A stretch of 64,000 bases of DNA from Naegleria gruberi (GCA_000004985.1 GG738899.1), one strand, 5' to 3'. Shown: positions 20,560 to 47,266, numbered from the stretch's first letter. Notes: a model not told the origin generated them from the letters alone. Numbers and translations are program-made.

Positions 20560-23500
20560 ATGGCACTGGTAAGTTTTATATGCGTTTAATGCGTGATTCA
20601 ATTTTGATAGAGAAACATTTCGAATGCAACAATAGTTAAATCAATTGTTGTTGCAGCAGTTGTTTTGGGTACTTTGATAGGTGCCCTAGTGATTACACTC
20701 GCTGTTACTCTAACAATCAAGTCTGATTTGAATGGCCAATTCACAGATTATGTTAAAGGATACAAGAATAGTGATATTGTAGTCCAACCAACAATTTCAA
20801 CAACATCTTCCAGTTCTCCTGCTCAATTAGACATTTCACAACAAGGATTAGAAAAGCCATATCATGGCTCCCTCAGACTAGGTTCAAACAATACCATCAT
20901 CTACCACTCTGAGAAGTATTTCTCAGGTAATGATACTTTTGAATATTATGTTACCTATGGCGAAAGCTCTTCTCTAAAAGTAAAGAACAGAGTATCCATT
21001 CTAGTTATGAATAGAGATCCAAAAGCTGTACCACTCACATTCGAAATACCAAAGAATTCTCATGATAACATCATTGATATCTTTGAAAAGAATGATAAGT
21101 TTGGAATGAAGGTTACTGATGACGATGATGATATTCTCGAGTTGGTTTCAGTATCCACTCCAAAATTGTCTGGCTCTGTTGTCTCCTCCAATAGTAAGCA
21201 AATTATCTACACTCCATGCACTAATTGTATTGGTGTAGATTCTTTTACATATACTGTTACTGATTTCAATTCAACAGTCTCCTCCACAATTACTATCAAC
21301 TTGGTCAATACTCCACCAAATGCTGTTAGAGATGATTTTACCATTAGCAAGAACAAGTTGGCAACTCTCAATGTCCTCTCCAATGATATTGATGAGAATC
21401 TTGACGAGTTGTACATCATCTCTGCTGGAACTGGTGAAGGTTCTATTGGTAGCGTTGTTGTTTCAACAGACAGAAAGTCATTGATCTATTATCCTAAAGC
21501 TGATACTAAGCCATACCTTGACGTTTTTAGTTATGTCATTACAGATGACTTGAATAATCCAAATTCAACCTCTACAGGTTCTATCCATGTTACAGTTACC
21601 AATTCACCACCTAATGCTCCTGAAACCAAACAAGTTTCAGTTTCCAAGAATTCAGCCAACTCTACCATTGATCTAACCTTTACTGATAATGATATTCTTG
21701 ATACTGTGAATGTTGAAATATTATCAACACCAAAGAGAGGTTACTTTTCTTTTGTTCAACAAAAGTATATTGATTCTGTTGATTATTTGGGTCAAATCTA
21801 TGTAGATGTTCTCAAGTTAAGATATCAATTATTGTACTCTCCAGAGAAAGGTGTTTCCTATTCTGAGAGTTTCAATGTAAAGGTAACAGATGGCTACTCA
21901 AGTTTGATTACAAGTATTATTATCAATGTGGTCAACACTCCTCCTATTTCTGTTAATGATACCATTACATGTACAAAGAATAATGAAGTAGTTGTTGACG
22001 TAATCTCCAATGACTATGATGTTGATGGTGATTCTATCAAGTTGTCTACCACCGATTGGGAGCCAAATAGTTTCAATGGTGGAGAAGTTTTCAGAACTGA
22101 TGACAGGTCAATAACATACAAAGCTCCTCAAGGGTTTGTTGGTATTGATACTGTAAGATATTACATTACTGATGGTGAATCAATTTCATATGGATTCTTG
22201 ACTGTCAATGTTCAAAGTGTAAAGCCGATTGCGGTGAATGATGTATTCTTTGTTCCAAAGGGACTCAAGACGTTCTTGAATGTATTGAACAATGACTACA
22301 GTCCAAGTAAGGATGAAATTTTGTTATCCTTTGCTACCATTAGAAGTGTTGAAGAATCCAATGTAGTACGTAGTCTCAGAAATAACGTCTATGGTTACGA
22401 ATACTCTGCCTCAGATGTGGAATATGTCGATACATTCAATTACAAGGTTGTTGATGTTTTTGGATTGACTTCCGACTCTGCAGTAGTAACTGTTAAGGTT
22501 GTAAACACTCCTCCAAAAGCTGTTGATGATGTCATTTCAGTTTCTTGGAATAGAGATGCTGTTTTGAATGTTCTCGAAAATGACTATGATGAAAATCCAA
22601 GTGATAATCAATTACTTGTTGTTAAGAGAACTATTCACGGAGAAAATCAAACAGTTCCTACTCCAGTCATCTTTGAATCAGGAAAGAAGTTACTCCTTTC
22701 CCCACCAAATGGCTTCACTGGTACTTTTGAATTTTTCTATGTTATTTCTGATACTTTTGATGAATCTAATGTGGCTAAAGTTACCGTTTCTATTGTAAAT
22801 CACCAACCAATTGCTAATGATGATCATGTTAGTGTTCATTGGAGAGATGGAATTTCTGTTATTAATGTTTTGCAAAATGATAGTGATGAAGATGGTGATA
22901 TCCTATTAATCAAGTCTTTCACTCAACCATCCAAAGGATTTGTGGTCAAGAAAGCACTCCCTGATGGAACTGAAGTATTTGAGTACTCTATTCTTGCTTC
23001 TGTAAAATTTGTCGGTATTGATAGTTTCCAATATGAAATTACAGATAATGGCAAGTCCTCAACAGCCACAGTCTATGTCAATGTTACCAACTTTTCTCCT
23101 GTAGCTAATGAAGATTCCTACAATGTACATTGGAACGCAGAGCAACAAGAGTATGAGATTCTCTCTAATGACTTTGATGGCGATTCTGATCCATTGAAAA
23201 TTGTTCCAAACTCTCTCATAATACCAAGTCAATTCAGAGGTCAAACTGAAATCAATGCTGATGGAACTGCAATCAAATTCAAACCTTCAGTTTCAGGTGT
23301 ATTTACTCTCACTTACAGAATTAGTGACACAGTAAGCCAATCATTGGACACTAAAGTTACTTTTAATGTGACCAACTTGGACAAACCGCTCCTGAGAACA
23401 ATCGAAAAGAACATCCATTGGACTATGAACCAACCAATTTCTATTCCTATCACAACTTTCACAAGAGATTCTGATGGTGATTTGCTTGTCATTTCTTCAG

Positions 23501-26500
23501 AGTTTGTGAAACAACCAACTAATGGTAGTATTGAGAGTGTTAATTATGGAGATGCAAATACAGTACCATCTCTTGTTTATAAGAAGAATCCAGGTTTCTT
23601 TGGTTCTGATATCATTCAAGTTTTATTGACTGATGGTTTAGACTCTGCCATTATTACTATCAAAGTCAATTCTATCAATCAAATTCCTCTTTGTCAAAGC
23701 ACTATAAAGGAATCAGTATTTTGGAAGGATTTACCATACGTTAGAAATAGTTTACTTATTGCAGGTGCACTCGATCAAGATAGCGAAGATATTGTCTATT
23801 TGAAGAGCGTTGCCAACAGCTTTAATGATATTTCTGTTAATGGTGATGAAATAACATTCTCTCCATTGAAGGGATTTGTTGAGGAAAGAAATGCTCAATT
23901 GATATTCTCTGACGGATTGGACATTTGTACAAGTATTTTGAAAATCAAGGTAAATGATTCAAAGCCTCAAGCAACCCCTACTATCAGTATGATTCACTGG
24001 TCTAAATCATCTTCCCTAATTGATGTCTTGTCTACTATTGTAGACGCTGATGGTGATTCATGTGATTTCAGTATCAAGTCACAATCTGACTACTCAATTG
24101 GAAGTGCCAGTATTGAATTGAATGCAAATACTAAATTTGTAAAGTGGACTGTATCTAATGATAAGAACTTAGGAGAATCCACTTTTGATATTGAATTCAC
24201 AGATGGTTATTTAACAGATACAGCAACTTATAGAGTCCAAGTTTACAACAATATTCCAATTGTTCCTCAAAAAACCATTGAAGTCCATTGGTCCAAATAT
24301 TTGAATGGTATCTCTATCAATTTGTTACAAGATATTATTGATAATGACGAACAAGATACTGTTTCAATCCCATTAAATTCTTGGGTAACAAGCAAGGTTG
24401 GAACTATCACAATGACTTCCGACAAGATTGCTCTCTATAAACCAAAGCAATCTTATTTGGGAGATGATGAAATTAATTTCACAGTAACTGATGGTTTGGC
24501 CATTGTCAATGTTACTTACAATATTAAGGTCATTAACAGAAAACCTGTTGCTGTTGATGATAATATTTCAGTTCACTGGAATGATACTAGTGTCGATATT
24601 AATGTTTTAGCCAATGACTATGATCCAGATCAAGAAGATACCATCTACATTGCTGCTTTACTCACAGAACCAAGTTCTGGAAGAGTAGAAAAGATTTCAA
24701 CCACAACTGTAAGATATTACTTACCTGAAGATCACTCTGTTTTGGGTGATTTTACTTTCCGTTACTCAGTCACTGATGGTACTGAGATTGCTGAAGCTAA
24801 TGTTACTGTAGATATTGTAAATAGAGATTATCCAATAGATGCCTCTATTTCAAGATCTATCCATTGGAGAGAAGCTGTTTCTGGACTTGCAATCAACATT
24901 GTTCCTTCCAAGAATGATCAAGATGGTGATTTAATAATTTTAAATATTGTTGAATCAAACAATCCTGGCATATTTAGCATTTCCAATGATGTTAACTTGC
25001 TCGTAAAGAGTGAAGAACCTCTCAAGGGAGACTTTAACGCCTCAGTTTCTATCTTTGATGGTATCTCTGTTGCTAATGCACATATTCAAACCTCAATTTA
25101 CAATCATGCTCCAACATCAAGGGATTTGTATTTCAACTTCCACTGGAGTACAATTAGTAGAGGAGTCTATATTGATCTAGTTCAACGATCAAATGATATT
25201 GACTTGCAAGATAAATCAAAGTTGAATATCAAGCATGCTCAAGTTATTGCTGGACCAGATGCTAATGCCGTAACCATTGTAAACAATACTCTTTACTTCA
25301 AGCCAAGCATTCTTGAAATTGGCAACACAACAATTGAGTTTATTATTAGTGATGGATTTGAAGATTCTGATTTACATACCATGATTATTGAAAGTAGAAG
25401 TGTTGTTGCTCAGAAAGCAGATCAATACTTTGATGCTCATTGGCGTTCGTTTGCTTTTGGTAATATCTATGGTCTCGATGAATCATTCAGTAATGAAGAA
25501 ATGATTACCTTATTGGATGTCATTCAACTTCCTGATCATGGAGGACAAGTATCCATTAGTACTATTAGAAACGTTACTTACTATCCTAAAGAAAACTTTG
25601 TTGGTACTGAAGTTTTTGCTGTTTCCTACACAACAGGCATTACCTCATCAAATATTACTGTTCATGTTAATGTCTATAACAATAATCCACAAGGTGCTCC
25701 AAAAGATTATGAAACTCACTGGAGAAATCCTGTTTTGATGAATATTCTTAATGGTGCCTTTGATGAAGATGAATACGATAGATTCTACTTGTTCCCAGAG
25801 TTGCTTGAAGAGTCAACAACAGGAACTTTGTCACAAATTGCTCCTGATGGTTCTGTAACCTTTACTCCAAATGTTACTTCTGGTTTTATTGGAACAACTA
25901 CCTTCTATTACAGAATCAATGATGGAAATAAGGTCTCTTTACCAACTCCTGTAACAATTACCATCAATAACAATCCACCAACATCACACACTAAAGTATT
26001 GAATATAATGTGGAAGAATTTCCTTGATGGTGTTGATTTTGACATTATTTCAACAAATCCAACAGACACTGATTCTGACTCTTTAGATATTCCATTCTTA
26101 TTTGTAAAGAGTTTCAATCAACCATTGCCTTTTGGAGAAGTTTCTCGTTTATCTTCATCCAGAGTCAAGGTTCAAGGTAGTTCATCGTTCCTAGGCTCAA
26201 CTTCATTCTCTTATGTTTTATCAGATGGTGCCATGAATGGTGATTCTACTGGTATTGTGGCCATTAACGTTTACAATAACAAACCAAACTTGACCCAAGA
26301 TACAATTACCACACACTGGAATGTCGACTTTATTGATATTGATGTTTTGTCCAACGATTTTGATATTGATAATAATCCTCTCTTGATTACAACTCTTAAG
26401 AATTATGCCTCACCTGACTCACAAATCATTTTGAATAATAAGGTGAGATATTATCCAAGAACTTGTTCTTCCTCTTCAGATAAATTTAACTATGTAGTTT

Positions 26501-29500
26501 CTGATGGCATTGAATCATCAGAGAGTGAAGTTAATGTAATCATTCTCAATAACAAACCAATTAGCAAGAATTATAATACCACCCATGTATGGCACAATGC
26601 TATTGGAGGTGTAGTTTTCGATATTGTCTCTGAATCAGTGGATGTCGATGGAGATTCTATCAGTATTGTTAAATTCAGCTCTATTCCTTCAGAACAAGGT
26701 ACATTAGAATTGACCAACAATAATAAGAGTCTAATCTATACTCCAAGACTTGGTTTTATTGGTAGTGTTGAAACAATTTCCTATGTAATTACCGATGGAA
26801 GAGATGAAGCTGTTGGTACTATTGATATTGAAATTACTAATAATTTCCCATCTTTGGGTGTTTCTGCAGTTTCTTCTCATTGGAGAAGTGCATTGGAAGG
26901 AACTTTATTCGATTTGAGCTCGAAGTTTATTGATACAGATGGCGATAATGTAATCTTGAAGGCTGTCATTCACCAAGCAGCTAAGGGAACTGTATCAATC
27001 ATTGATTCCAAGACAATCAAATATCAAAGCTCATTTTCTTTCAAGGGTAGTGATTCTTTCACTTTACAATTATCAGACGGATACAACCTTGTTACTGTTG
27101 ATTTGGAAATTGATGTTACTAACAATTTACCAACCTTGAGTGATATTTCTATCCAAACTCTTCACAGATTATCTGGAAATGTAATTATTCCATTGATTAA
27201 CAGAACCGATTCGTTGAAACCAAAAGATTTGGATATTCTCGACAATGACAAGCTTACCATTTCTGCTTTCACTCAACCAGGTATTGGAAGTGTTGTTTTT
27301 TCTGATGCTACACAACTTTCATTCACCTTCTCCAATGTTTTGGGTAATCTTTTGGAACAAACCTTCTCTTACACTGTGTCAGATGGATTGGAAAGTGCAT
27401 CTGCATCTATTACCATTCAAATTCTTAACAATCCTCCAGTTTTGGTTGATGCTGCAAAGAGTTTCCACTGGAGATCTATCTATGAAGAAGGTGGTTCAAT
27501 TGCTCTTGATATTTTGAAGGAATCTAATGCTTTAGATGCTGATGGCGACAATTTGTTCGTAAAGAGCTTTACTCAACCAAGTGTTGGTTCTGTATCTTCC
27601 TTGAATACTTCTCATGTCACATTTAGTCCTGTTGCATTTAAGGCATTTACAACAAGCTTCAAGTTTACTGTTTCAGATGGTGCTCAACAAGTTGAGAAAC
27701 AATTTGACATTTCTATTACAAACACCAATCCAAAGGCAGTTGATGACAGCTTGAACAAATTGTGGAGCAACAAGGTGTTCACTTTCTCTCCATTGGTTAA
27801 TGATTATGATGATAATAATGATCAAATCACTATCGTCCCAGAGTTGACTGAAAAAGTTTCAAGATTGCGATCAGCCTCAATTACTGTAAACAGTGACTTG
27901 AAAACTATTACCTATTCTGATACAGGTTCACTCACTACAGGATCTGATTCCTTCTCCTATACTATAACAGATGGTGTAGCAACAAGTTCTGCTATTGTTT
28001 CTATCACTTTTACTAATACCGAACCTTCAGTTGAATCATTTGAAGTTTCTGTCAAGTGGGATCAATCTATTACTTTTGATAATCTCCTTGGTAGATGTAA
28101 AGATCTTGATGGTGATGCATTGTCATTTGCTGGTATTACTCAAGGGATGTTAGGAACTACTCAATTGATTGACTCTCAAATCGGAACTTCTAAATATACA
28201 CCAAATCGTGCCTTGACCTATACCAACAAACCATCGACTGGTAATTGGACAGTTGTTGATACTATCCAATACTCATGCACAGATAGTGTTGTTCAAAAGG
28301 CAGGTACCATTTCAATCACAATTTACAATGAACCACCAAAAGGAAACGATATTTCCATCTCTCAAGTTAGAAATTACAATAATCCTCAAATTTCAATTGA
28401 TGGATATTCAATTTTATCTCAATCTAGTGATTCCAATGGAGATTCTATTACAATTACCAAAGTCAAACTCTATGATAACCAAAATATTGAAACTTCTGTT
28501 GTTTTACAAGCTGACAGTTCCATCAAATTCAAATATGGCAAGTCTTTCATTGGAATTCAAAAATTCTACTATACTATTTCAGATGGACAACTTGAAAACA
28601 CATACACATATTCTGTTGAAATATTGGGAAGCCCATCTTTGTGCGTCGATTATACCATTTCTACATTCAAAGACGCTTTGTCAACAGCATTCGGATCTGA
28701 CTTGAATTCCAAGTTGAATTTGGCATTTGATGGCGAGCCAATCTCTGTAACAGTTTCTGGAACCTCAACCTTGAGCTCTGTTGGTACTATTAGCACTGTT
28801 GATAATACCCTCACATATACTCCAAATAAGAGAAGATCCTGTATTAACAATGCTTGTTATGCCACCTACACAGCAATCAATGCTGCTGGTCAATCAGCCA
28901 CTTGTAAGATTATTGTCAATCAATCTAACCAAGCTCCAAATAATCCAAGCTATACCTACAAGTATTCTGCCAGAAGAGATGGAAACAACTTGATGATCTT
29001 TGATTATCTTGTTGATGCAGCTGTAACCGATCCTGATAGTACAGACAGCGTTTCTATTCAATCAATCTCAAGTCTTGGATCATGTTCTGATAAGGCCACT
29101 ATTTCTGTTAGTAATGGAAAGATTTCATTCACTAGACAAGCCACCTTCCTTGCTTCCACTTGTACATTCAACATTAAATTACAAGATGATGATGAATTAA
29201 CACCTGCTACAAGCATTGCCTCTATTACAGTTAATCCAACTATTTCTCCACCGTTGGCAGTTTCTGATAACATTATGGCCACTTTCAATTCCAACAGAGA
29301 TATTGATGTTTCTGTTTTGCTTCAAAATGATATTGATTTATTGGGAGGTAGCTTTACATTTGATGGTTTATTCTGCCCAGACGCAACTTACTGCAAGAAT
29401 GGTCTTCCAACCTTGTTGAATGCCAACACTGTTAGAATTCCTTTCAAGACTGGAAGTTGTGAAGCTGAAAAGGTTCAATACAGAATCAAGTCAACCCAAG

Positions 29501-32500
29501 ATGGATCTGTATCATATGCCAATATTATTATCAGATATGCTGGTTGTGTTTGCGAAAATATTTTCGACGTTGTTTTCATTGTTGATGGTTCTTATTCTAT
29601 TTCAGATGCCAATTGGGTCAGTTTGAAATCATTCTTCTCCAATATTACCCAAAGCTTGAACGTTGGTCCTTCTGCAACTAGAATTGGTATTGTTCAATAC
29701 AGTTCTGATGCAACTGTTGAATTAGATCTGAATAGTGGAACTTCGTCTAATGCTATTGTCAATCGTATTAGTAATATTGCTCAAAAGAAATCAGCAACTG
29801 CTTCAATTTATGGTATTGATAAGGCTGTTGAATTGATGGTCTCTCAAGGAAGAAGTGATGTTCCAAACAAGCTCTTTATTCACGTAACTGATGGTCAAAG
29901 TAATATGCCTTGCTCATGTGGTGAATGTAAGAATTATTATGGAACATTTGAAGGATGTAACTCTGTCTTATATCCTGGTAAATCGTGTGACTATTGCTCA
30001 TGGAATGATCCTCAAAGTCGTTGTGCACCTTGTTCAGATTACACAGAAAAATGTCAAAGAATTAACAAGTGGAGAAGTGGTAATAATGATAATCCTGAAC
30101 CATCTAAGAATTGGAATTATAGAATGATGGCTATTGGTATTGGATCTGGTGTCAATAATCCGTACGGTCTAGTTCAATTAGAAAAATCAAACTATGACCC
30201 ATCCCTCTTCCATTTATTCGATTGGAATGATTTGAATTATAAGATGATTGTTGATGAATCATGTGCTGCTTCTTATAACATTTATGGTGAAACTGCTCTC
30301 CAAAATACTACTTACGCTGATTCTCAAATTACAGTTCAATATTCTGGTAGAAGTGTTGTCAATCAATCAAATATTGCTAGTACAACATTTACCTATGTCT
30401 TGACAGCACCAACAAGCACAAAGCAAAAGAGTATCAAGAAATTCGTACTTTCCAATTCAATTTCTGATCCAGAATCATATGTTTCATACAACCCAACATT
30501 CCCTGTATTTGTTGGAACTGAATCCTTGACAAGCTTATTTGGATTTGTGTGGGACTCTGTTCCTTCCTCATCACTTGTTCCAATGGGATCATCTAAAACT
30601 GTTACCATTACTGTATGCGGTGATGTTCCTGAAAGTATGGTTTCTTTTGGTGTTGTTAGTGAATCCTTCATTACCTATTCAACAATTAAGGGACCAGCTA
30701 CTTCACTCTGTGTTGATAAGCCAGTTATTGATCCTAATACTCAATGTTTTGCTAAATCTGGAGCTTCATCATGTAGTGGACATGGTTTGTGTGTTCAACC
30801 TGATCTATGTCAATGTAATTCTGGATACACTGGAACTGAGTGTGAAACTCCTATTTGTTTCGATTTGACTGGTAACTTTGCATGCTCTGGTACTTCTAAG
30901 GGTACTTGTACTGGACCTAATACTTGCCAATGTCAAACTGGTTGGACTGGTACTGATTGTTCTATTCCAATTTGTTATGGTCTTGCAGCAAATAATGCTG
31001 GTTCTTGTAGTGGTTCCTCAAAAGGTACATGTATTTCTAAAGACACATGTCAATGCCAAACTGGATGGACTGGATCTGACTGTTCAGTTCCTATTTGTTA
31101 TTCACAGACTGGATCATCTGCCTGCTCAGGACCATCTCAAGGAAGTTGCATTTCTAAAGATACTTGCCAATGTCAAACTGGTTGGACTGGACCTGAATGC
31201 TCAATTCCAATCTGTTATGGATTAGCAGCAAATAATGCTGGTTCTTGTAGTGGTTCATCAAAGGGTACTTGTATTTCTAAGGATACATGCCAATGTCAAG
31301 ATGGTTGGACAGGATCAGATTGCTCAATTCCTATTTGCTTTGGTCGTCCACAAACTGATACATTATCTTGCTCTGGTTCCTCCAAGGGTACTTGTGTTTC
31401 AAAGAGCAGTTGTTCATGTCAAACTGGTTGGACAGGTTTCGATTGTTCCATTCCAATTTGTTATGGTGTGAATAGTACATCTACATCTGTTTGTGGTGGC
31501 TCCTCAAGAGGTTCCTGTACATCTAAGGATACCTGTCAATGCCAAACTGGATGGACTGGTTCTGATTGTACCGCTCCTGTCTGTTATGGAGCTTCTGGCA
31601 GTAGTGCTTGTGGTGGATCCACTAAGGGAACATGTACTGCACCTAATTCTTGCTCCTGTAAGACTGGTTGGACTGGTTCTGATTGTACAACTCCAATTTG
31701 TTTCTCAAATACTGGAACATCTGCTTGTGGTGGTTCCTCTAAGGGAACATGTACTGGTCCAGACACATGCCAATGCCAAACTGGTTGGACAGGATCAGAT
31801 TGCACAACCCCAATTTGTTATTCACAAACAGGATCTTCAGCTTGTGGTGGTTCAACTAAAGGTACTTGTACAGCTCCAAATACTTGTTCATGTCAATCAG
31901 GATGGTCTGGAAGTGACTGTACAACTCCTGTATGTCCAGGAAATTGTAATGGTAGAGGTTCATGTTCTGCACCAAATTCATGCAGTTGTAATAGTGGATG
32001 GACTGGTTCTGATTGTTCCATTCCTATCTGTTATTCACAAACAGGATCTTCAGCTTGTGGTGGTTCAACTAAGGGTACTTGTACAGCTCCAAACTCTTGC
32101 TCCTGTAATTCTGGTTGGTCTGGTTCTGATTGTACAACTCCAATTTGTTCAGGTGGTTGTGGTAATGGCGTTTGTAGTTCACCTGGTTCTTGTTCCTGTA
32201 ATTCTGGTTGGAGTGGTGCCACTTGTACAACTCCNNNNNNNNNNNNNNNNNNNNNNNNNNNNNNNNNNNNNNNNNNNNNNNNNNCAGTGGATGGAGTGGA
32301 TCTGATTGTAGTGTTCCAATTTGTTCAAGTGGTTGTGGAAATGGATATGCCAGTTCACCTGGTTCTTGTTCCTGTAATTCAGGTTGGAGTGGTGCTACTT
32401 GTACAACTCCTGTTTGCTCTGGTGGTTGTGGTAATGGTTATTGTAGCTCACCAGGATCCTGCTCATGTAATTCTGGATGGTCTGGTGCCTCTTGTACTAC

Positions 32501-33218
32501 TCCTGTGTGTTCAGGTGGTTGTGGAAATGGTTATTGTAGCTCACCAGGTACTTGTTCCTGTAATTCTGGATGGTCTGGCACAACATGTTCAACACCTGTC
32601 TGCTCTGGTGGCTGTGGTAATGGTTTTTGCAGTGCTCCTGGAAAATGTACTTGTAATTCTGGATGGTCTGGCACAACTTGCACAACTCCAGTTTGTTCAA
32701 GTGGTTGTGGTAATGGCGTTTGTAGTTCACCTGGTTCTTGTTCCTGTAATTCAGGTTGGAGTGGTGCTACTTGTACAACTCCTGTTTGTTCAACATGTAA
32801 TGGTAGAGGTTCATGTGTTGGTCCAGAAAGTTGTTCATGTAACAGTGGATGGTCTGGAAATCTCTGTCAAACACCTGTCTGCTCAACCTGCAATGGACGT
32901 GGTACTTGTGTTGGTCCAGAAAGCTGTTCTTGCAGTAGTGGATGGACTGGAAACTTGTGTCAAACACCTTCATGCACCAATAATTGTAATGGACACGGAA
33001 CCTGCACTGGGCCAAATACCTGTTCCTGTAATTCTGGTTGGAGTGGAGCTGCCTGTGAAACTTGTAGTAATTGTTGTTATGGTATTCCAGCTTCTGATCC
33101 AAGTGTTTGTTCCTGGGGTCAAGGTAGATGTGTGAGTGGTGCTTGTGTCTGTATTGGTCCTTACTATTGTGGTGCACAATGTCAACAATGTGGTTGTAAC
33201 AAATATATGTGTCCTTAA
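20560..33218 (+). CDS. Giant adhesin-like type II membrane protein (>4,500 aa): 3-codon first exon (20560-20568), 42-nt intron (20569-20610), N-terminal signal-anchor transmembrane segment, ~28 tandem ~100-aa cadherin/VCBS-like repeats, Cys-rich linker, VWA domain, then at least 22 tenascin-type EGF-like repeats. The CDS is interrupted by a 51-N assembly gap (~32234-32284) inside the EGF array. Stop at 33216-33218.
   Basis: ATG GCA CTG|GTAAGT...GATAG|AGA joins in frame to track ORF 20665-33135, giving MALRNISNATIVKSIVVAAVVLGTLIGALVITLAVTLTIKS (hydrophobic anchor). Repeats carry the recurring signature V(N/Y)(N/T)xPxAxxDxxxVxWNxxxxxIxVLxNDxDxDGD, about every 100 aa from ~20980 to ~29300. VWA/MIDAS-like DVVFIVDGSYSIS...RIGIVQYSSDATVELDLN at ~29560-30200. 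EGF modules C.G.G.C.....C.C..GW(T/S)G.DC..P(I/V)C recur every ~31 aa from ~30760. Track ORF 32208-33218 continues the same EGF repeats after the gap in the correct frame and ends ...CQQCGCNKYMCP*. Confidence 0.8.
20980..29300 (+). repeat. Coding tandem array of ~28 divergent ~300-nt (100-aa) cadherin/VCBS-like repeat units within the giant gene.
   Basis: Periodic protein motif (VNTPPxAVxDxISVxWNxxAxLNVLxNDYDxDxD and variants such as IHW/THW/FHW + ...ND.D.DGD) counted about 27-29 times in the translation of 20665-33135. Confidence 0.7.
30760..33120 (+). repeat. Coding tandem array of ~93-nt EGF-like repeat units, highly similar at the nucleotide level, containing the assembly gap. The true copy number is unknown.
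   Basis: Recurring ...tgt caa tgt caa act ggt tgg act gg(a/t) tct gat tg(t/c) tc(a/c) att cc(a/t) att tgt tat... units. A run of 51 N at ~32234-32284 lies in the middle of the array. Alternate reading frames stay open across the array (track ORFs 30878-32305 +), typical of a low-complexity repeat. Confidence 0.75.
32234..32284. other. Assembly gap (51 N) inside the EGF-repeat array of the giant gene.
   Basis: Literal run of n in the sequence. Flanking sequence on both sides is the same EGF repeat unit. Confidence 0.95.
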
Positions 33219-41070: not shown

Positions 41071-42945
41071 TTGAAAATGTGTCATGGTTGTTATGCTCCA
41101 CCATTGTTTTTGTTACCGGTTTTGTTGGTAGTAGAGGCTTTTAGAGGGATCGGGAAAGGAATACAAAGTGTTGATCAAGCAATTCGGGCCAACAATTTAA
41201 AGATGATAGAATTATTCAAGCAAAAGAAACATGATTTGGATTTATCTGCTTCTAATCAGCTGTTGGATAAGTCGAGTGTTTCCATTCAGGAAATTAAAAA
41301 ACATGTTGATGAGTTGAATGATAATGATAGGGAACAATTAGCCAAATTGTTGATTCAGAGATGTATTGCCCGATTGGAACAACCTGATTATGGATTGGCT
41401 AAGGATGATATGCTTGAGGCATTGTCATTGATGAATGCAACTGGTGAATCGGGTAATGATGGTTCTTCTTCTTTTGGTTCATTCTGTAGGAATTTCTATT
41501 TGGCTGAATACTTGTTGGGAATGTGTTATCACGGAAATGGTGATTTTAAGGAGGCTGCTATTCATTTCCAAAAATCTATTGAACACAGATCTTATGTAGA
41601 ATCTCAATTGATCGATCATCAAGACAATGAGAAGGAACTTATTGCAATGGAAGAACAATTCTTTTCCATGCAATTAGAAGCAAAGAAGCCAGTGGAAAAG
41701 GTTGCTGCTTCTTGGACTAAAAATTGGAGCTATTATGCCAATAGTGTTACTAATTTTACAAATAAGGCCAAGAATTTCTATAACCACAATTTAATGCTAG
41801 GCTCAGATAAGCCAGTCCTCAAGACCAAACCAAATACCTACATTACCTTGGAATTGTTGTACATTAGAGCAGGTGTCTCCTATTATTCTGGCACCTATTA
41901 TGCAAATGGCGTTGAATATTTCAATAGAGCTATAGAATTGGGAGAGAGCTATCAATCAGAATATTTGGAGTCATCCTATTATAATAGAGGATTGTGTTAT
42001 TATTATTTAGGAGAATTGGAAACAGCTATTGAAGATTTTACCAAATCCATTTCTTTAATGCCTCTCCTAAAACAAAGAGATGCTGTCTATTTAATGAGAG
42101 CTGCCACATATGGAAGATTGGGTATGATCAAAGAGAAGGAGCAGGACGAATATAAGGCTCGTCTCATAAATCCATTCGGAAAACCTCTTCCATTATTTCA
42201 CCTTAGATTATTAGATGATGATACACTTTGTCATATTATGAGCTTCCTTCAAACCAGACAAGTATTGGTAATGTCATCTCTGAACAAGTACTCAAGAAAT
42301 CTTGTAAAGAGCTACCTACAACAATATGATATTGAAATTAGTTATTCTGCTCTGGTTGTTACTGAAAAGAAACCAGCATCTTTGGGACAAACTTGGTTCC
42401 TGCCAAAGGAAAGTTTACCAGGAAAAGCTGAGATGGTCAATCACGTACTCCAACATTCTCTGCTTAAGCATGTAAGAAATATGAGATTGTTAGCTTGTTC
42501 GTCTCATTTTTTTACTGAAATACACTTTGAAGAACAAGTCCTATCTAAAACTAAGAATTTGAAGAGATTGGCATTGTATGAGTATACACCTGTACAATCA
42601 ATACTCCCAGTTCACTCTCCTGATCTCGAATACTTGGAAATTGGTTCGAGTATTTACAATGACTACCATTTCCGTCCATTCATCTCCAAGTTTACTAATT
42701 TGAAGCATTTAAAACTTGGAGTTGCTTTCTTCCCTTCTTTGAATCCATTCTCTGATAATCCTAATCTTCAAATTGTAGAATATTTACCAATCACTGATCA
42801 AGACACGGAATACTATGTGAATTATACTGGCTCCAAGCCAGTTGGAAATACTTGGGAAGAATTGAAATCTTTGAATCCTCACATTGTTTTTAAAGAGTAC
42901 CAAGCAAGTACCAGCAGTTGTCTCTATGATTTTACTTCTTACTAA
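41071..42945 (+). CDS. TPR-repeat / F-box-like / LRR-like protein.
   Basis: Single 624-aa ORF. TPR-like helices (GNGDFKEAAIHFQKSIEH, YFNRAIELGESYQSEY, TAIEDFTKSISLMP). F-box-like LPLFHLRLLDDDTLCHIMSFLQTRQVLVMSSLNKYSRNLV. C-terminal LRR-like NLKRLALYEY...LEYLEIGSS...NLKHLKLGVAFFPSL. Confidence 0.5.
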   Translation: MKMCHGCYAPPLFLLPVLLVVEAFRGIGKGIQSVDQAIRANNLKMIELFKQKKHDLDLSASNQLLDKSSVSIQEIKKHVDELNDNDREQLAKLLIQRCIARLEQPDYGLAKDDMLEALSLMNATGESGNDGSSSFGSFCRNFYLAEYLLGMCYHGNGDFKEAAIHFQKSIEHRSYVESQLIDHQDNEKELIAMEEQFFSMQLEAKKPVEKVAASWTKNWSYYANSVTNFTNKAKNFYNHNLMLGSDKPVLKTKPNTYITLELLYIRAGVSYYSGTYYANGVEYFNRAIELGESYQSEYLESSYYNRGLCYYYLGELETAIEDFTKSISLMPLLKQRDAVYLMRAATYGRLGMIKEKEQDEYKARLINPFGKPLPLFHLRLLDDDTLCHIMSFLQTRQVLVMSSLNKYSRNLVKSYLQQYDIEISYSALVVTEKKPASLGQTWFLPKESLPGKAEMVNHVLQHSLLKHVRNMRLLACSSHFFTEIHFEEQVLSKTKNLKRLALYEYTPVQSILPVHSPDLEYLEIGSSIYNDYHFRPFISKFTNLKHLKLGVAFFPSLNPFSDNPNLQIVEYLPITDQDTEYYVNYTGSKPVGNTWEELKSLNPHIVFKEYQASTSSCLYDFTSY

Positions 42946-43208: not shown

Positions 43209-44070
43209 ATGTCAGAAACCATCCACTTTGAATTTATCAACATTCCTGCCTCCGAAAAGGACCCATTCGTCATCAAAATTGGTGGAAATGAAGTTTATTC
43301 GTAAGTTTCCACCACTTTCTTCTAACATTTCCAATAGAGCTACCGAAACCTTGAAGGACACTAAATTTTCCCTCAAAATCTCACCATCCGGTCTATCTGC
43401 CATCCATCGTGAATTTATCAACTTTATAATTCCACAAGCAGACATTGATGAATTAAATCAATATGATTTAACTAATAAGGGATATTATCTGAAAGTTCGT
43501 GTAAAGAATTTGGGAGAATTATCAGTAACTCAGGGAGTGAATGCTGCTATGGATGAAGCTAATGTCATTGTTGATGATCAACGTAAATTCTATGTTGATG
43601 AAAAGACTGGAGAATATACCTAGTAAGTTTAGTTTTATTTCGGATAAAAATAATTTAACACTGGATTAATTACTTGATGATTTTGAAAAATTAGTAAATA
43701 TAACAAACCAGCCTATCTTGCAGATGATTATGAGAAAAGTCCAAAGAATAAGCTTACAAAGGCAGTTCACAATTCAGCAGACTTTGGAACTGATTCCACA
43801 CGTATCTGGCTTCACTTGTCAGGAATTGATGCCTCAGAAGAAGATCCTTTTGAAATCTTGGATGCTGATCAAAATGATAAGAGAATCATGCATACCACTA
43901 AACCAATCTTTAGAAAGAAGGAAATGATGATCTATGTCAAGAAGAATGATCCTCAAGCTAAAACACACATTGCTAATTTGCATATCAAGATTCCAAGTGT
44001 TGGTGTTGATACAGTTAGTGATTTTGATTTGACTACTTTGGGTACCCATATTTTGATTGCTGTTTTGTAA
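43209..44070 (+). CDS. Hypothetical protein made of two copies of a ~95-aa domain I do not recognise. Three exons ~43209-43301, ~43350-43620, ~43691-44070.
   Basis: ATG at 43209 (MSETIHFEFINIPASEKDPFVIKIGGNEVYS|GTAAGT). Second exon ATETLKD...EKTGEYT ends ..acc ta|GTAAGT. Acceptor AAATTAG|T restores the frame into the C-terminal copy ...IWLHLSGIDASEEDPFEILDADQND...HILIAVL* (track ORF 43816-44070). The two halves share the I(N/D)(I/A)xASE(K/E)DPF(V/E)I motif. Confidence 0.5.
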
Positions 44071-44187
44071 GTATTTAAATTACCATATTTGTTAATATTT
44101 ACAATATATATATGAACAAATACAAATATAAATGAAAAATATAGAAATGAAGGATCCAATGTTGAAATTCAACAAAGAACAAACAAA

Positions 44188-45261
44188 ATGTTCGATGAAA
44201 AATACTTTAATCCAGTTCACTATGCAAATGCTGAACAAGAATACAAACAAAAAAATAGAGAAAAGTCACTTGTAAAATATGATGATGATTCCAATTCTGG
44301 ACCAGTTACTGAAACTCAAATGAGAGCAGGCGATTCTGATTCATTAGATGAAGTGACTCTTTCTTTATATGTTAATAATATTCCAGCTTCCAAAAAGGAA
44401 CCATTTACCATTTATATCAATGGTGATGAATTTTTCAAGAGTGAAGAAGAAATTCCACTCACAAGAACTACTGTATTGAGAGCTTCATTTGAAAAACCAC
44501 CACGTGGTGAGGAATTGGTCATTGAAGCTCGTTTCAATATTGAAGCTCGTGATGTTGACACCAAGCAACAATTTAACATTACCAAAAATGGTACATTCAT
44601 GTTCTTTGGTATCGAAAAAGTTGGAGACAGTGAACGTATCCAAATGAAACAACAACATAATGATACTTTTGGACCAAAATCTGGAGAAACTATGACTAAA
44701 TCAAGTGGTGCTTCTGCTAGCTCAAAGAGTTCAACTGAACAAATTCCAGTTTACTTCCATTTGGCTGGTATTAATGCTACTGAACAAAAACCATTCGAAA
44801 TTTATGTTAATGGTCAACAAATTTACAAGCAAACTCAAGATCTTGGAGATAGAATGGCCATTGTAACTGGAAGATTGCCAAATGTTGATGATTTGAGAGT
44901 TACTGTTAAGGCAGTTTCTCTCCTCGATGGTTTGGAAGAAGAATCTGAAGTTAACGTCTCCAAGTATGGTAATTACATCAAGTTGGAAGTTAGCAGTGAT
45001 CGTTCTGTTATTGACATTACTCAATCAAAGAATGCTGAATTTGACAATGCCACCATTGTTGATTCAAAGAAGATGCCAAAATCCATTCCAAAAGTTACTC
45101 CTTCCACTACCTCAACAACTACAACTGCAAAGCCAGCAGCATCAACAGGAGGAAGTGAAGATTATTTGGATGTTTTGAAAAAGTTGGGTGAATTGAGAAA
45201 GGCAGGTATTTTGACTGAAGAAGAATTCCAAGCAAAGAAGAAACAAGTTCTTGGTTTGTAA
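44188..45261 (+). CDS. Hypothetical protein with two more copies of the same ~95-aa domain, an S/T-rich linker and a SHOCT-like C-terminal tail.
   Basis: Single 357-aa ORF. Repeats LSLYVNNIPASKKEPFTIYINGDEFFK... and YFHLAGINATEQKPFEIYVNGQQIYK... C-terminus EDYLDVLKKLGELRKAGILTEEEFQAKKKQVLGL matches the SHOCT-type pattern (L..L..L...G.IT.EEF...K..LL). Confidence 0.55.
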   Translation: MFDEKYFNPVHYANAEQEYKQKNREKSLVKYDDDSNSGPVTETQMRAGDSDSLDEVTLSLYVNNIPASKKEPFTIYINGDEFFKSEEEIPLTRTTVLRASFEKPPRGEELVIEARFNIEARDVDTKQQFNITKNGTFMFFGIEKVGDSERIQMKQQHNDTFGPKSGETMTKSSGASASSKSSTEQIPVYFHLAGINATEQKPFEIYVNGQQIYKQTQDLGDRMAIVTGRLPNVDDLRVTVKAVSLLDGLEEESEVNVSKYGNYIKLEVSSDRSVIDITQSKNAEFDNATIVDSKKMPKSIPKVTPSTTSTTTTAKPAASTGGSEDYLDVLKKLGELRKAGILTEEEFQAKKKQVLGL

Positions 45262-47266
45262 ATAAAGTAGAACCACATTCTTTGGATTTATTTTGCTTTG
45301 CAAATCGACTTGGCAGCTTGTCTGGTAAGGATAACAAGGATGGACACGAGAGAGCTTGTTTGACTTGTGGATCTTCCCTCAAGTGTTTTGGTGCATACAA
45401 GTAGGCAATTGGGGAGTAACTTTCCATACATTTCAATAAGAGATCCTTGTCAGATCTAACTCTTTCCGAAGCATAAATGTAAATGCTACTTTCTGAATTT
45501 TCAATCGCTGTCTTATCATCTCTCATCTTTGATGTAAATAAACGTGGATCAATATTACTCAAATCTGAAGGATATTCTTCTCTCAAAATATCAATTGGTA
45601 CCACTCCATAGTTCAACAAATCTGGATTCGATTTCAAAGCCGTAATCCAGAAAGTATTATCCTTACGAAGCTTACTACTCACTAGAACGCTTGTATATGC
45701 TGATATTTCAAGCAAATGCAACATAAACTCATCATCTTTCAAGTATTCTGCTGGGATGAAATTTTGTACTGCATTGTAATTCATAGCATAGTCAATATCA
45801 TCGTCTTCCATATTTCTCAGTATTTCCAAGATTTGATCCATTGTTAAGTTTAGTCCACTGACATATGCCAAAGCTTTTGGATTTGCTAATATTTTGACAT
45901 CATTCTTGAGAGAATCACCAATAAAAAGAGCACAATTTACATTGATATCAATGCATTCTAACATGAATTCCCTATTATTTCTCAATTCAGGAGAAGCAAT
46001 ACTTAAGAAAATTACATTTCTACGTGAGATTTCCTCAAGAATTACATCTCTATCCTCCAAATATTCATTAGTCTTGTAATTTCTATGGAAGTGTTCATTG
46101 ATAACTTCAACCATGAGTGTTAAATTGTTCAACAATTCTGGCTCTACTGATTCAATATCCAATGTAACCTGTAAGAACCTTAAAATGTCTTCCTTTGTCT
46201 TAATTTTGAAGCCAATTTCACCCAAACCTATAGTATAGACCCAGTGTTTAGCCACTTCTGGATCATTGATGAATTCTGTTTGAACACGATATGGATATAC
46301 TAAATAAGGGTAATGCTTCATTAATTTGATTGTAAACTCTTTATCCTTTCTTAAACTATGATGTAAGAAAAGGTGAGAACTATTGATATTGAACAAATTA
46401 AAGTAAGCATCCTTATCCTTTCTGATTTCTGTAGGAAAAAATGCTGGAATACGTTGAATAAAAGAATCTGGATCAGTTTCGAATAATTGTTTGACTGCTC
46501 CCAATATTTCTGGATCTCTTCTCAATTCAACACTGAGATATGGATAGAAATTAGCATGCACTTTCAAAAACTCGACAAGATCCTTCTTATCTCCTTCTTG
46601 CATAATTTTCACATACTTTTTCATGTTATCTATCATTTCTTCTTCTGGATAAACTTCATTACCAAGTAATGAAATTGGTTTGATTACATGAATTGGAATA
46701 CTCTCAATCCAATCTTTGATATGTCCAATGCATTTCAATGATGGGAACATTGTAGTACCTGTCTTTAAATAAAAGAAACCATTTCTCTTATCTAAAAGTG
46801 TCACTACTGTAGAGTACAAATGTCCTGTCTGAACCATTATCAAATTCTCTTGCCATTGATTTTCACCAAATTCACTGTCCAATAGCAAGGGAAAGGTTGA
46901 ACGTTCAGAGATTGGTGTTTCTACAACAAATTCCCAATCATCAACCGGGGCAATGGTAATTAAATTAGAGAAATGATATCTGCCACTTGCACAATTAGTC
47001 AACCAAACCTTCAAGTGAAATTGCATATTGGTAAAACCAAATTGATTAATTAAATTGGCTAATTGTTCATTGCTGAGTGCAGGAGAATCGTAATCATGGG
47101 CAAGTTCTTGGCAATATTTATGCCATTTGTCAATCAAGTCATTCTTCTCTTCTGTGTGATAAATTGCATCAAAGGTTGTGTTTATCAATCTGCTGTGTGC
47201 TCTGTCTATTGTTGAAAGGAATGGGAAAATCCTAACAACAACTTCTGGGATGTGGAAGATATTCAT
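45119..47266 (-). CDS. F-box-like / DUF4116-type repeat protein. The 3' end is uncertain because the ORF tail overlaps the convergent gene's 3' end.
   Basis: 715-aa ORF. N-terminal F-box-like IPEVVVRIFPFLSTIDRAHSRLINTTF. At least 7 repeats of the form (S/P)xELRxDKEFxLxxxK / LRKDNTFWITALKSNPDLL / VRSDKDLLLKCMESY / LREDPQVKQAL, reminiscent of DUF4116 repeats. The last ~47 codons (45119-45261) overlap the 3' end of + gene 44188-45261. Confidence 0.55.
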   Translation of the reverse strand: MNIFHIPEVVVRIFPFLSTIDRAHSRLINTTFDAIYHTEEKNDLIDKWHKYCQELAHDYDSPALSNEQLANLINQFGFTNMQFHLKVWLTNCASGRYHFSNLITIAPVDDWEFVVETPISERSTFPLLLDSEFGENQWQENLIMVQTGHLYSTVVTLLDKRNGFFYLKTGTTMFPSLKCIGHIKDWIESIPIHVIKPISLLGNEVYPEEEMIDNMKKYVKIMQEGDKKDLVEFLKVHANFYPYLSVELRRDPEILGAVKQLFETDPDSFIQRIPAFFPTEIRKDKDAYFNLFNINSSHLFLHHSLRKDKEFTIKLMKHYPYLVYPYRVQTEFINDPEVAKHWVYTIGLGEIGFKIKTKEDILRFLQVTLDIESVEPELLNNLTLMVEVINEHFHRNYKTNEYLEDRDVILEEISRRNVIFLSIASPELRNNREFMLECIDINVNCALFIGDSLKNDVKILANPKALAYVSGLNLTMDQILEILRNMEDDDIDYAMNYNAVQNFIPAEYLKDDEFMLHLLEISAYTSVLVSSKLRKDNTFWITALKSNPDLLNYGVVPIDILREEYPSDLSNIDPRLFTSKMRDDKTAIENSESSIYIYASERVRSDKDLLLKCMESYSPIAYLYAPKHLREDPQVKQALSCPSLLSLPDKLPSRFAKQNKSKECGSTLFTNQELVSSLLGILLQSKYLPFSIHPTFSKHPNNLHFLLLMLLALQL

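What the first reader, a model, noticed from the sequence alone, without database searches (positions are those of the whole stretch)
43209..45261. Tandem gene pair sharing a ~95-aa repeated domain I do not recognise (4 copies), the second gene ending in a SHOCT-like tail
Two adjacent same-strand genes each contain two copies of a domain with the conserved core h-x-h-x-I-(N/D)-(I/A)-x-A-(S/T)-E-(K/E)-(D/E)-P-F-x-I-x-I-x-G-(N/D)-E. I cannot assign it to a known family by eye. The second protein ends in EDYLDVLKKLGELRKAGILTEEEFQAKKKQVLGL, a strikingly good match to the SHOCT short C-terminal motif, which is best known from bacterial/archaeal proteins. This looks like a local duplication creating a small family. 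The first gene's model needs a phase-2 GTAAGT/AG splice to join its second domain copy.
Basis: partly seen in the sequence, partly recalled or inferred. Interest (0 to 1): 0.6.

Follow-up and report, generated by a model that had tools for sequence, protein, structure and literature searches.

The report
One amoeba gene: four beta-sandwiches plus SHOCT
The supposed pair of duplicated genes is a single four-exon gene of a Naegleria-like amoeba, encoding four copies of an unnamed beta-sandwich domain and a genuine SHOCT tail; it belongs to a small family of unknown function found so far only in heterolobosean amoebae.

Summary
The repeats and the SHOCT tail are real. Four ~105-110-aa copies score 73-138 bits against the repeat profile. 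SHOCT (PF09851) scores 33.2 bits against a cut-off of 27.

The "tandem gene pair / local duplication" reading is wrong. A third phase-2 GTAAGT..AG intron (44067-44144) joins the two ORFs into one 621-aa, 69.8-kDa protein. Exons are 43209-43300, 43338-43622, 43695-44066 and 44145-45261. The 14 codons after that intron supply the missing last strand of repeat 2. All three intron positions are conserved in a related species and in Willaertia magna, whose NCBI model is a single 633-aa protein (57% identity, 100% coverage).

The protein has no signal peptide, transmembrane segment or cysteine, and the domains are joined by disordered linkers. The likely role, which is inferred, is a cytoplasmic modular adaptor targeted by its SHOCT tail. 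Interest is modest: an undescribed lineage-specific domain in an otherwise ordinary conserved hypothetical gene.

The parts
43209..43300 (+). Exon 1 (aa 1-30 plus 2 nt); start codon ATG at 43209; begins sandwich domain 1
   Evidence: The N-terminus MSETIHFEF aligns with METIYFHL of Willaertia P0001.
43301..43337 (+). Intron 1, 37 nt, phase 2, GTAAGT...TCTAAC...AG
   Evidence: This is the only acceptor giving an open frame. The product has the same length as Willaertia across the junction. The intron position is conserved in L001 and L003.
43338..43622 (+). Exon 2 (aa 31-126, part): rest of sandwich 1 and the conserved linker QRKFYVDEKTGEYTY
43623..43694 (+). Intron 2, 72 nt, phase 2, GC 0.21 (exons 0.35)
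   Evidence: Acceptor 43694 gives KYNKPAYLADDY, matching Willaertia KYNKPVYLAENY.
43695..44066 (+). Exon 3 (aa 126-250, part): linker and strands 1-7 of sandwich 2
44067..44144 (+). Intron 3, 78 nt, phase 2, GC 0.14.
   Evidence: The frame is continuous. Donor TT|GTAAGT and acceptor AG|AAATGAAGG are conserved in L001 and L003, while intron length and sequence are not. The NCBI single-gene model in Willaertia reads ...THILIAVLNEGSNVEIQQR....
44145..45261 (+). Exon 4 (aa 250-621 plus stop): last strand of sandwich 2, sandwiches 3 and 4, S/T-rich linker, SHOCT
   Evidence: The metagenome contig L004 is 99.4% identical; the three substitutions inside the CDS are all synonymous.
43209..43566 (+). 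Beta-sandwich domain 1 (aa 1-107; spans intron 1)
   Evidence: 73.2 bits against the repeat profile.
43789..44208 (+). Beta-sandwich domain 2 (aa 158-271; spans intron 3)
   Evidence: 106.2 bits. With a profile lacking R2-type rows, the fused form scores 68.5 bits (profile positions 2-110) and the truncated form 50.5 bits (positions 2-90).
44344..44685 (+). Beta-sandwich domain 3 (aa 317-430)
   Evidence: 138.0 bits. AlphaFold2 gives pLDDT 92.1 and pTM 0.81, with eight strands.
44734..45057 (+). Beta-sandwich domain 4 (aa 447-554)
   Evidence: 130.0 bits. pLDDT is 74-89 in the two-domain model.
45058..45159 (+). Disordered Ser/Thr/Pro-rich linker (aa 555-588)
   Evidence: pLDDT is below 50 for model residues 308-337. 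The composition is seen directly in the sequence.
45175..45252 (+). SHOCT domain (aa 594-619), helix-turn-helix
   Evidence: PF09851 scores 33.2 and 39.2 bits against a cut-off of 27. AlphaFold2 predicts helices 340-352 and 358-369 of the model, pLDDT about 84.

Best explanation
The interval 43209-45261 (+) is one spliceosomal, four-exon gene of a Naegleria-like heterolobosean amoeba. It encodes a 621-aa, 69.8-kDa acidic protein.

Shown:
- The protein is 'beads on a string'. Four ~105-110-aa eight-stranded beta-sandwich domains of an undescribed family are separated by disordered linkers.
- A Ser/Thr-rich tether leads to a C-terminal SHOCT helix-turn-helix.
- There is no signal peptide, no transmembrane segment and no cysteine.
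- It belongs to a small family of sandwich+SHOCT proteins. All named members are Heterolobosea.

Inferred:
- It is a cytoplasmic, non-enzymatic adaptor or scaffold.
- The four divergent sandwiches act as binding modules.
- The SHOCT tail, on a flexible leash, targets the protein to a partner or to the cytoplasmic face of membranes. That role has been proposed, but not demonstrated, for SHOCT-like domains.
- Paralogues with 6-10 SHOCT copies would do the same with higher avidity.
For: Gene model:
- The frame is continuous across three phase-2 GTAAGT..AG introns.
- Introns 2 and 3 have GC 0.21 and 0.14, against 0.35 for exons.
- tblastn exon boundaries fall at aa ~30, ~125 and 250/251 in the related species L001 and in Willaertia L003 as well. 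The flanking exon ends are conserved but the introns are not.
- Willaertia P0001 is an NCBI single-gene model of 633 aa with 57% identity over 100% of the query.
- The post-intron segment adds 18 bits and completes repeat 2 under an independent profile.
- The three substitutions inside the CDS against a 99.4%-identical environmental contig are all synonymous.

Domains:
- AlphaFold2 pLDDT is 92.1 for repeat 3.
- The two-domain+SHOCT model has confident domains, linkers below 50 and pTM 0.36.
- SHOCT scores above the gathering cut-off.
- There is no Pfam or PDB sequence match for the sandwich.

Family:
- 92 representatives have E<1e-3 among 1.84e9 proteins.
- The named ones are N. gruberi, N. 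fowleri, Willaertia and Acrasis.
- SHOCT occurs in 30 of 69 representatives, many of which are fragments. The only other confident partner is one C2 domain.

Location:
- The maximum 19-residue hydropathy is 1.21, there are zero Cys and pI is 5.3.

SHOCT role: a membrane-anchoring role is predicted by Ravi et al. 2024 (PMC11237479).
Against: - There is no transcript evidence for any junction in this species; the model rests on homology and frame logic.
- Intron 1 is only 37 nt.
- The function is wholly inferred. The only direct test of SHOCT, for oligomerisation, was negative (PMC3581485), and membrane anchoring is only a prediction.
- A 'SHOCT domain-containing protein' of 69.45 kDa is abundant in N. 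fowleri secretome and vesicle preparations. If it is the orthologue, this could instead point to an extracellular role.
Confidence: 0.85

Rival explanations
1. One reading: two adjacent genes, each with two domain copies, produced by a local tandem duplication. Gene 1 ends at TAA 44068-44070 and gene 2 starts at ATG 44188.
For: An in-frame TAA follows exon 3, and an ATG-initiated 357-aa ORF begins at 44188. ORF-based callers on related contigs make the same split.
Against: - Gene 1 would end with a sandwich lacking its last strand (profile positions 2-90 only).
- The 43 nt upstream of the ATG encode NEGSNVEIQQRTNK, conserved as NEGSNVEIQQRKDK in Willaertia.
- The Met is not conserved.
- The stop lies inside a conserved GTAAGT donor.
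- Domain types are position-specific across old paralogues, and internal identity is only 17-26%.
Confidence: 0.04
2. It is an extracellular or secreted adhesion-type protein. Ig-like sandwiches with conserved N-x-T/S sequons would be exported unconventionally or in vesicles.
For: - A near-invariant N-(I/L/V)-(T/S) motif occurs in the repeats.
- Fold neighbours include fimbrial and cell-adhesion proteins and carbohydrate-binding modules.
- A 69.45-kDa N. fowleri SHOCT protein is among the most abundant proteins in conditioned medium and vesicles.
Against: - There is no signal peptide or transmembrane segment, and sandwich 1 starts at residue 3.
- There are no cysteines.
- The N-x-T motif sits at a predicted short helix cap (H79-82) and is D-L-T in repeats 1 and 2.
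- The same secretome lists are dominated by cytosolic proteins such as actin, EF-1alpha and Hsp70.
- Orthology to A0A6A5CCE5 is untested.
Confidence: 0.1
3. It is a bacterial contaminant, or a recently transferred bacterial gene, since SHOCT is mainly prokaryotic.
For: SHOCT is overwhelmingly bacterial or archaeal (PMC3581485). The weakest profile hits are bacterial Ig-repeat proteins.
Against: - The gene has three spliceosomal introns.
- Neighbours are eukaryotic-type genes: TPR, DUF4116, kinase, BTB-BACK-SPRY, LRR and GST.
- GC content is uniform at about 0.34.
- Orthologues lie in three heterolobosean genome assemblies.
- The bacterial hits are summed weak partial matches to I-set/Big_7-type repeats.
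Confidence: 0.01

Closest known systems
SHOCT-domain proteins of Naegleria gruberi (Eberhardt et al. 2013, PMC3581485; e.g. D2W1V1 / NAEGRDRAFT_82045, D2VS68)
   Same: Both carry SHOCT above the Pfam cut-off, usually at the C-terminus, in eukaryotic amoeba proteins. D2W1V1 (P0016) carries two copies of the same sandwich domain.
   Different: The 2013 paper describes only the SHOCT part; the sandwich domain is not named there or in Pfam-A. This gene has four sandwiches and a single SHOCT, whereas D2W1V1 has N-terminal SHOCT repeats and two sandwiches.
Willaertia magna hypothetical protein ABK040_014968 (P0001, 633 aa)
   Same: This is the orthologue. It is 57% identical over 100% of the protein, with the same four-domain order, the same SHOCT tail and the same three intron positions.
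   Different: It comes from a different genus. Its introns are longer (about 150-180 nt) and its Gly/Ser linkers are longer. It is uncharacterised.
Generic Ig-like / transthyretin-like beta-sandwiches (HGSNAT luminal domain 8tu9/8jkv, PepT2 extracellular domain 5a9h, Bacteroides fimbrial proteins, CBM41, DUF4352)
Bacterial SHOCT-tailed globular-domain proteins (band-7/SPFH-SHOCT, Toastrack-SHOCT-like; Ravi et al. 2024, PMC11237479)
   Same: The architecture logic is the same: globular intracellular domain(s) without signal peptide or transmembrane segment, plus a terminal bi-helical SHOCT on a linker, predicted to localise the protein at the membrane.
   Different: The partner domains differ and the host is eukaryotic. 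This family also multiplies both the sandwich (1-4 copies) and SHOCT (up to about 10 copies) within single proteins.

Membership tests
SHOCT (Pfam PF09851) | Profile HMM score at or above the curated gathering cut-off (27 bits) | tested here: met
   33.2 bits (E=3.9e-8) in the full protein at aa 594-619; 39.2 bits for the isolated tail.
SHOCT (Pfam PF09851) | Short (~28 aa) module, predominantly at the extreme C-terminus | tested here: met
   It covers profile positions 3-28 of 28 and ends two residues before the stop.
SHOCT (Pfam PF09851) | Two amphipathic helices separated by a short turn | tested here: met
   AlphaFold2 predicts helices at model residues 340-352 and 358-369, pLDDT about 84.
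SHOCT (Pfam PF09851) | A defined molecular function (binding partner or membrane association) | not testable with these tools
   No function is established. The oligomerisation test was negative (PMC3581485). Membrane anchoring is only predicted (PMC11237479).
Heterolobosean sandwich+SHOCT family (unnamed; defined here) | One or more copies of the ~110-aa sandwich, matching the repeat profile with the motifs (N/G)-I-x-A-(S/T)-x3-P-F, N-h-(T/S)-x-x-G and Q-x2-N-x2-F | tested here: met
   There are four copies at 73-138 bits. The invariant residues are A15, P20, F21, G83 and Q103.
Heterolobosean sandwich+SHOCT family (unnamed; defined here) | Colinear orthologues in other Heterolobosea with shared intron positions | tested here: met
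   Willaertia P0001 has 100% coverage. Acrasis P0003 covers 76% and is a partial model. Intron positions are shared in L001 and L003.
Heterolobosean sandwich+SHOCT family (unnamed; defined here) | Restriction to Heterolobosea | tested here: inconclusive
   All named hits are Naegleria, Willaertia or Acrasis. Most of the 92 representatives are unnamed metagenome or read-archive (SRA) proteins whose organisms could not be determined.
Named beta-sandwich families (Ig I-set/Big, CARDB, C2, transthyretin, CBM41, DUF4352) | Significant sequence-profile match to the family model | tested here: not met
   No Pfam-A family reaches E<0.008 for any of the 11 repeats, and none hits more than one repeat. 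The PDB profile search gives at best E=0.22.
Tandemly duplicated gene pair | Two independent transcription/translation units with complete domains each | tested here: not met
   Repeat 2 is split by intron 3. The upstream unit alone lacks its last strand. The start Met of the 'second gene' is not conserved. The orthologue is annotated as one gene.

The most novel reading that the evidence does not exclude
The sandwich+SHOCT proteins could be a Heterolobosea-specific class of abundant cytoplasmic multivalent linkers. They would tie membranes or vesicles (through SHOCT) to another cellular structure (through the sandwiches).

This gene could be the orthologue of the 69.45-kDa N. fowleri 'SHOCT domain-containing protein' A0A6A5CCE5, which is among the most abundant proteins in secreted vesicles and conditioned medium. 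If so, it would give the first cellular handle on what SHOCT does in any organism, and a parasite-lineage-specific antigen with no human counterpart.
Probability: 0.15. Interest if true: 0.55.

Novelty: new member of a known kind. Interest (0 to 1): 0.3.

Why it matters
For annotation, the result corrects a split gene. It also shows why ORF-based callers and by-eye readers fragment genes in this genome: phase-2 G|GTAAGT donors place an in-frame TAA or TAG at every exon end.

For biology, it defines an unnamed ~110-aa beta-sandwich domain absent from Pfam-A. SHOCT is by far its commonest partner, and the named members are all amoebae of one lineage, which includes the human pathogen Naegleria fowleri. 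SHOCT has no known function anywhere. A eukaryotic family in which SHOCT copy number varies from 1 to about 10 beside a fixed partner domain is a usable system for finding out what SHOCT binds. Beyond that, the gene is an ordinary conserved hypothetical protein.

Tried and rejected
- AFDB fold libraries (afdb50) were not available, so no comparison with predicted structures of cellular proteins was possible.
The Willaertia repeats 1 and 2 were used instead.
- A full-length alignment built from separate window exons was misaligned by MAFFT, which placed exons 1-3 onto repeat 3. It was dropped in favour of the exon-4 product.
- Word-indexed homologue searches were lossy. The N-terminal-half query did not even recover Willaertia P0001, and the alignment query added only fragments. 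Absence of N. gruberi or N. fowleri orthologues from those outputs therefore means nothing.
- Exact-product look-ups of three window ORFs found nothing, so the source species could not be named. Only a 99.4%-identical metagenome contig was found.
- Orthology with N. fowleri A0A6A5CCE5 could not be tested because no sequence is available.
- Weak profile hits to giant bacterial proteins (P0073, P0076, P0079, P0093, P0094) were examined. They are summed partial matches to bacterial Ig-type or RTX-type repeats and were rejected as family members.
- A literature search for newer SHOCT functional work returned almost only shOCT4 noise.
- Contamination or horizontal transfer, a pseudogene, and a secreted adhesin were considered and judged unlikely (see rival explanations).

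Full report
**Setting.** The window is AT-rich (GC about 0.33-0.38 throughout). It carries long ORFs with eukaryotic-type domains next to the finding: TPR, DUF4116, a protein kinase, BTB-BACK-SPRY, LRR and GST. The finding's coordinates are exact. An ATG lies at 43209 and a TAA at 45259-45261.

**The observation.**
- IHFEFINIPASEKDPF
- IWLHLSGIDASEEDPF
- LSLYVNNIPASKKEPF
- VYFHLAGINATEQKPF

Each motif heads a unit of about 105-110 aa that ends in h-x-h-x-Q-x2-N-x2-F. Against a profile of the repeat, the four units score 73.2, 106.2, 138.0 and 130.0 bits. A tblastn self-match of units 1-2 onto units 3-4 has E=2.5e-10. The C-terminal 26 residues match Pfam SHOCT (PF09851) at 33.2 bits in the whole protein and 39.2 bits alone, against a gathering cut-off of 27. 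The repetition and the SHOCT tail are therefore real.

**Gene structure.** Three GTAAGT sites lie in the interval, at 43301, 43623 and 44067.
- For the first, only the acceptor ending at 43337 keeps the frame open.
- For the second, 43694 gives KYNKPAYLADDY, which matches the orthologue.

The result is one CDS of 1,866 nt with exons 43209-43300, 43338-43622, 43695-44066 and 44145-45261. It encodes 621 aa. All three introns are phase 2. Introns 2 and 3 have GC 0.21 and 0.14, against 0.35 for the exons.

1. The 14 codons between the acceptor and the ATG at 44188 encode NEGSNVEIQQRTNK. This is the missing last strand of repeat 2; compare ERIQMKQQHND, SVIDITQSKNA and ELSVTQGVNA in the other repeats.
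2. A profile was built without any repeat-2-type sequence. With it, repeat 2 scores 68.5 bits over profile positions 2-110 when fused, but 50.5 bits over positions 2-90 when cut at the TAA.
3. tblastn of the spliced protein places exon boundaries at the same residues (about 30, about 125, and 250/251) in contig L001 from a related species and in Willaertia magna L003.
4. The exon ends around intron 3 are conserved in all three (…GCTGT-TT|GTAAGT … AG|AAATGAAGG…). The intron bodies differ in sequence and length, being clearly longer in L001 and L003 than the 78 nt seen here.
5. The NCBI model for Willaertia is one 633-aa protein, 57% identical over 100% of the query, reading …THILIAVLNEGSNVEIQQRKDKFFDEDFF… across the junction.
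6. The "start" Met of the second ORF is Phe in Willaertia and Ile in Acrasis.

An environmental contig (L004, ERR1078381) is 99.4% identical to window 44141-45547. Inside the CDS it differs by three substitutions, all synonymous, plus one in-frame codon indel and one single-base indel that is probably an assembly error. ORF-based gene callers split the orthologous locus into 105-, 117- and 354-aa ORFs. It arises because a phase-2 G|GTAAGT donor places an in-frame TAA or TAG directly after each exon.

**The repeated domain.** AlphaFold2 on repeat 3, using an 11-row repeat alignment, gives a confident eight-strand beta-sandwich (mean pLDDT 92.1, pTM 0.81).
- Foldseek against PDB is no better than E=8e-3.
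- Against viral models the best is a DUF4352 protein, E=4e-4 and TM 0.56.
- No Pfam-A model matches any of 11 repeats below E=0.008, and none matches more than one.
- A profile search of all PDB sequences gives E ≥ 0.22.

At fold level the domain is an ordinary Ig/transthyretin-class sandwich.

**The whole protein.** The exon-4 product (aa 251-621) was modelled with eight orthologous rows. It shows two confident sandwiches (pLDDT 74-89) and three low-confidence linkers (below 50). It also shows a helix-turn-helix SHOCT (pLDDT about 84). pTM is 0.36, so there is no fixed inter-domain packing. The full protein is 69.8 kDa with pI 5.3 and no cysteine. Its maximum 19-residue hydropathy is 1.21, so there is no transmembrane segment or signal peptide, and sandwich 1 starts at residue 3.

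**The family.** A profile search of 1.84 billion representative proteins finds 92 with E<1e-3 and 58 with E<1e-10. Every named one is heterolobosean: N. gruberi D2W1V1, N. fowleri A0A6A5BLN9, several Willaertia magna paralogues, and Acrasis kona. The rest are unnamed metagenome or read-archive (SRA) proteins.
- Architectures combine 1-4 sandwiches with 0 to about 10 SHOCT copies.
- Of 69 representatives, many of them fragments, 30 carry SHOCT. The only other confident domain is a single C2.
- The weakest hits are giant bacterial repeat proteins. They match only by summed partial stretches to I-set/Big_7-type repeats and are not members.
- Clustering of individual domains groups the first, third and fourth domains of this protein with the same-position domains of distant paralogues.
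- The four domains within the protein share only 17-26% identity.

The four-domain order is therefore old. It is not a recent local duplication. No other copy exists in the window.

**Mechanism.** What is shown is the anatomy: a soluble, cysteine-free chain of four sandwiches with a flexible tether and a SHOCT hairpin, conserved under purifying selection across genera.

The role is inferred. The protein is probably a cytoplasmic adaptor in which the sandwiches bind targets and SHOCT localises the assembly. Ravi et al. 2024 predict that SHOCT-like domains anchor intracellular globular domains to the inner membrane leaflet (PMC11237479). One paralogue has a C2 domain, which fits a membrane-proximal theme. 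Eberhardt et al. 2013 found no oligomerisation by SHOCT and suggested it binds something else (PMC3581485). I rate the structural and gene-model claims at about 0.85-0.9 and the functional model at about 0.3.

One lead remains open. A 69,452-Da N. fowleri "SHOCT domain-containing protein" (A0A6A5CCE5) is among the most abundant proteins in conditioned medium and extracellular vesicles (PMC12089049, PMC9312180). The size matches this protein's 69,818 Da, but its sequence could not be obtained, so orthology is untested.

**Comparison with what is known.** SHOCT membership is met on every testable criterion. SHOCT in Naegleria was already reported in 2013: 14 proteins, one with eight copies. The orthologues are deposited as "hypothetical protein" or "SHOCT domain-containing protein". 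What has not been described is the sandwich domain and its obligate-looking partnership with SHOCT.

**Verdict.** The gene is a new member of a known kind, carrying an unnamed lineage-specific domain. It is worth a Pfam entry and a gene-model correction, but it is not a surprise at the level of mechanism. Interest is 0.3.

Noticed in passing
window 45119-47266 (-), overlap 45119-45261: The 715-aa DUF4116 ORF on the minus strand runs 143 nt into the antisense of the SHOCT-coding end of the + gene. In the 99.4%-identical metagenome contig L004, a 1-nt indel at about 45293 shifts that ORF so that it stops near 45290. The overlapping tail is therefore probably not genuine coding sequence, or one of the two sequences has a homopolymer error.
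   Followed up: partly
window 43299-43303, 43619-43625, 44065-44070: All three introns are phase 2 with G|GTAAGT donors, so every exon is followed immediately by an in-frame TAA or TAG. Unspliced RNA would terminate at once, and ORF-based callers fragment the gene. In L001 and L002 it was called as 105-, 117- and 354-aa ORFs.
   Followed up: yes
window 43576-43622 and 43695-43720 (aa ~111-134): The linker between sandwiches 1 and 2 (QRKFYVDEKTGEYTYKYNKPAYLA) is almost invariant between this species and Willaertia. It is more conserved than the domains themselves. It is Tyr/Lys-rich, has no known motif match and was not modelled. A second conserved linker piece follows sandwich 2 (FNPVHYANAEQEYKQ).
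   Followed up: no
L004 / L005 (ENA ERZ929261, run ERR1078381, PRJEB11402): An environmental metagenome contains DNA 99.4% identical to window 44141-45547, so the source organism or a very close strain occurs in that sample. None of the window's own proteins that were looked up is in the protein collection, so the species could not be named.
   Followed up: partly
P0007, P0008, P0019, P0084 (Acrasis, Willaertia, metagenomes); P0012 = L007 70-1866: Paralogues carry six to about ten SHOCT copies, separated by Pro/Thr/Gln-rich spacers, between or after the sandwiches. One environmental member has an N-terminal C2 domain, three sandwiches and no SHOCT.
   Followed up: partly
window 20665-33135 (+): A single uninterrupted ORF of 4,156 aa. 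It was not examined.
   Followed up: no
window 41071-42945 (+): The upstream neighbour encodes a TPR protein whose C-terminal half looks like an F-box/LRR-type region by eye. Only the TPR hits were confirmed. It is unrelated to the finding.
   Followed up: partly
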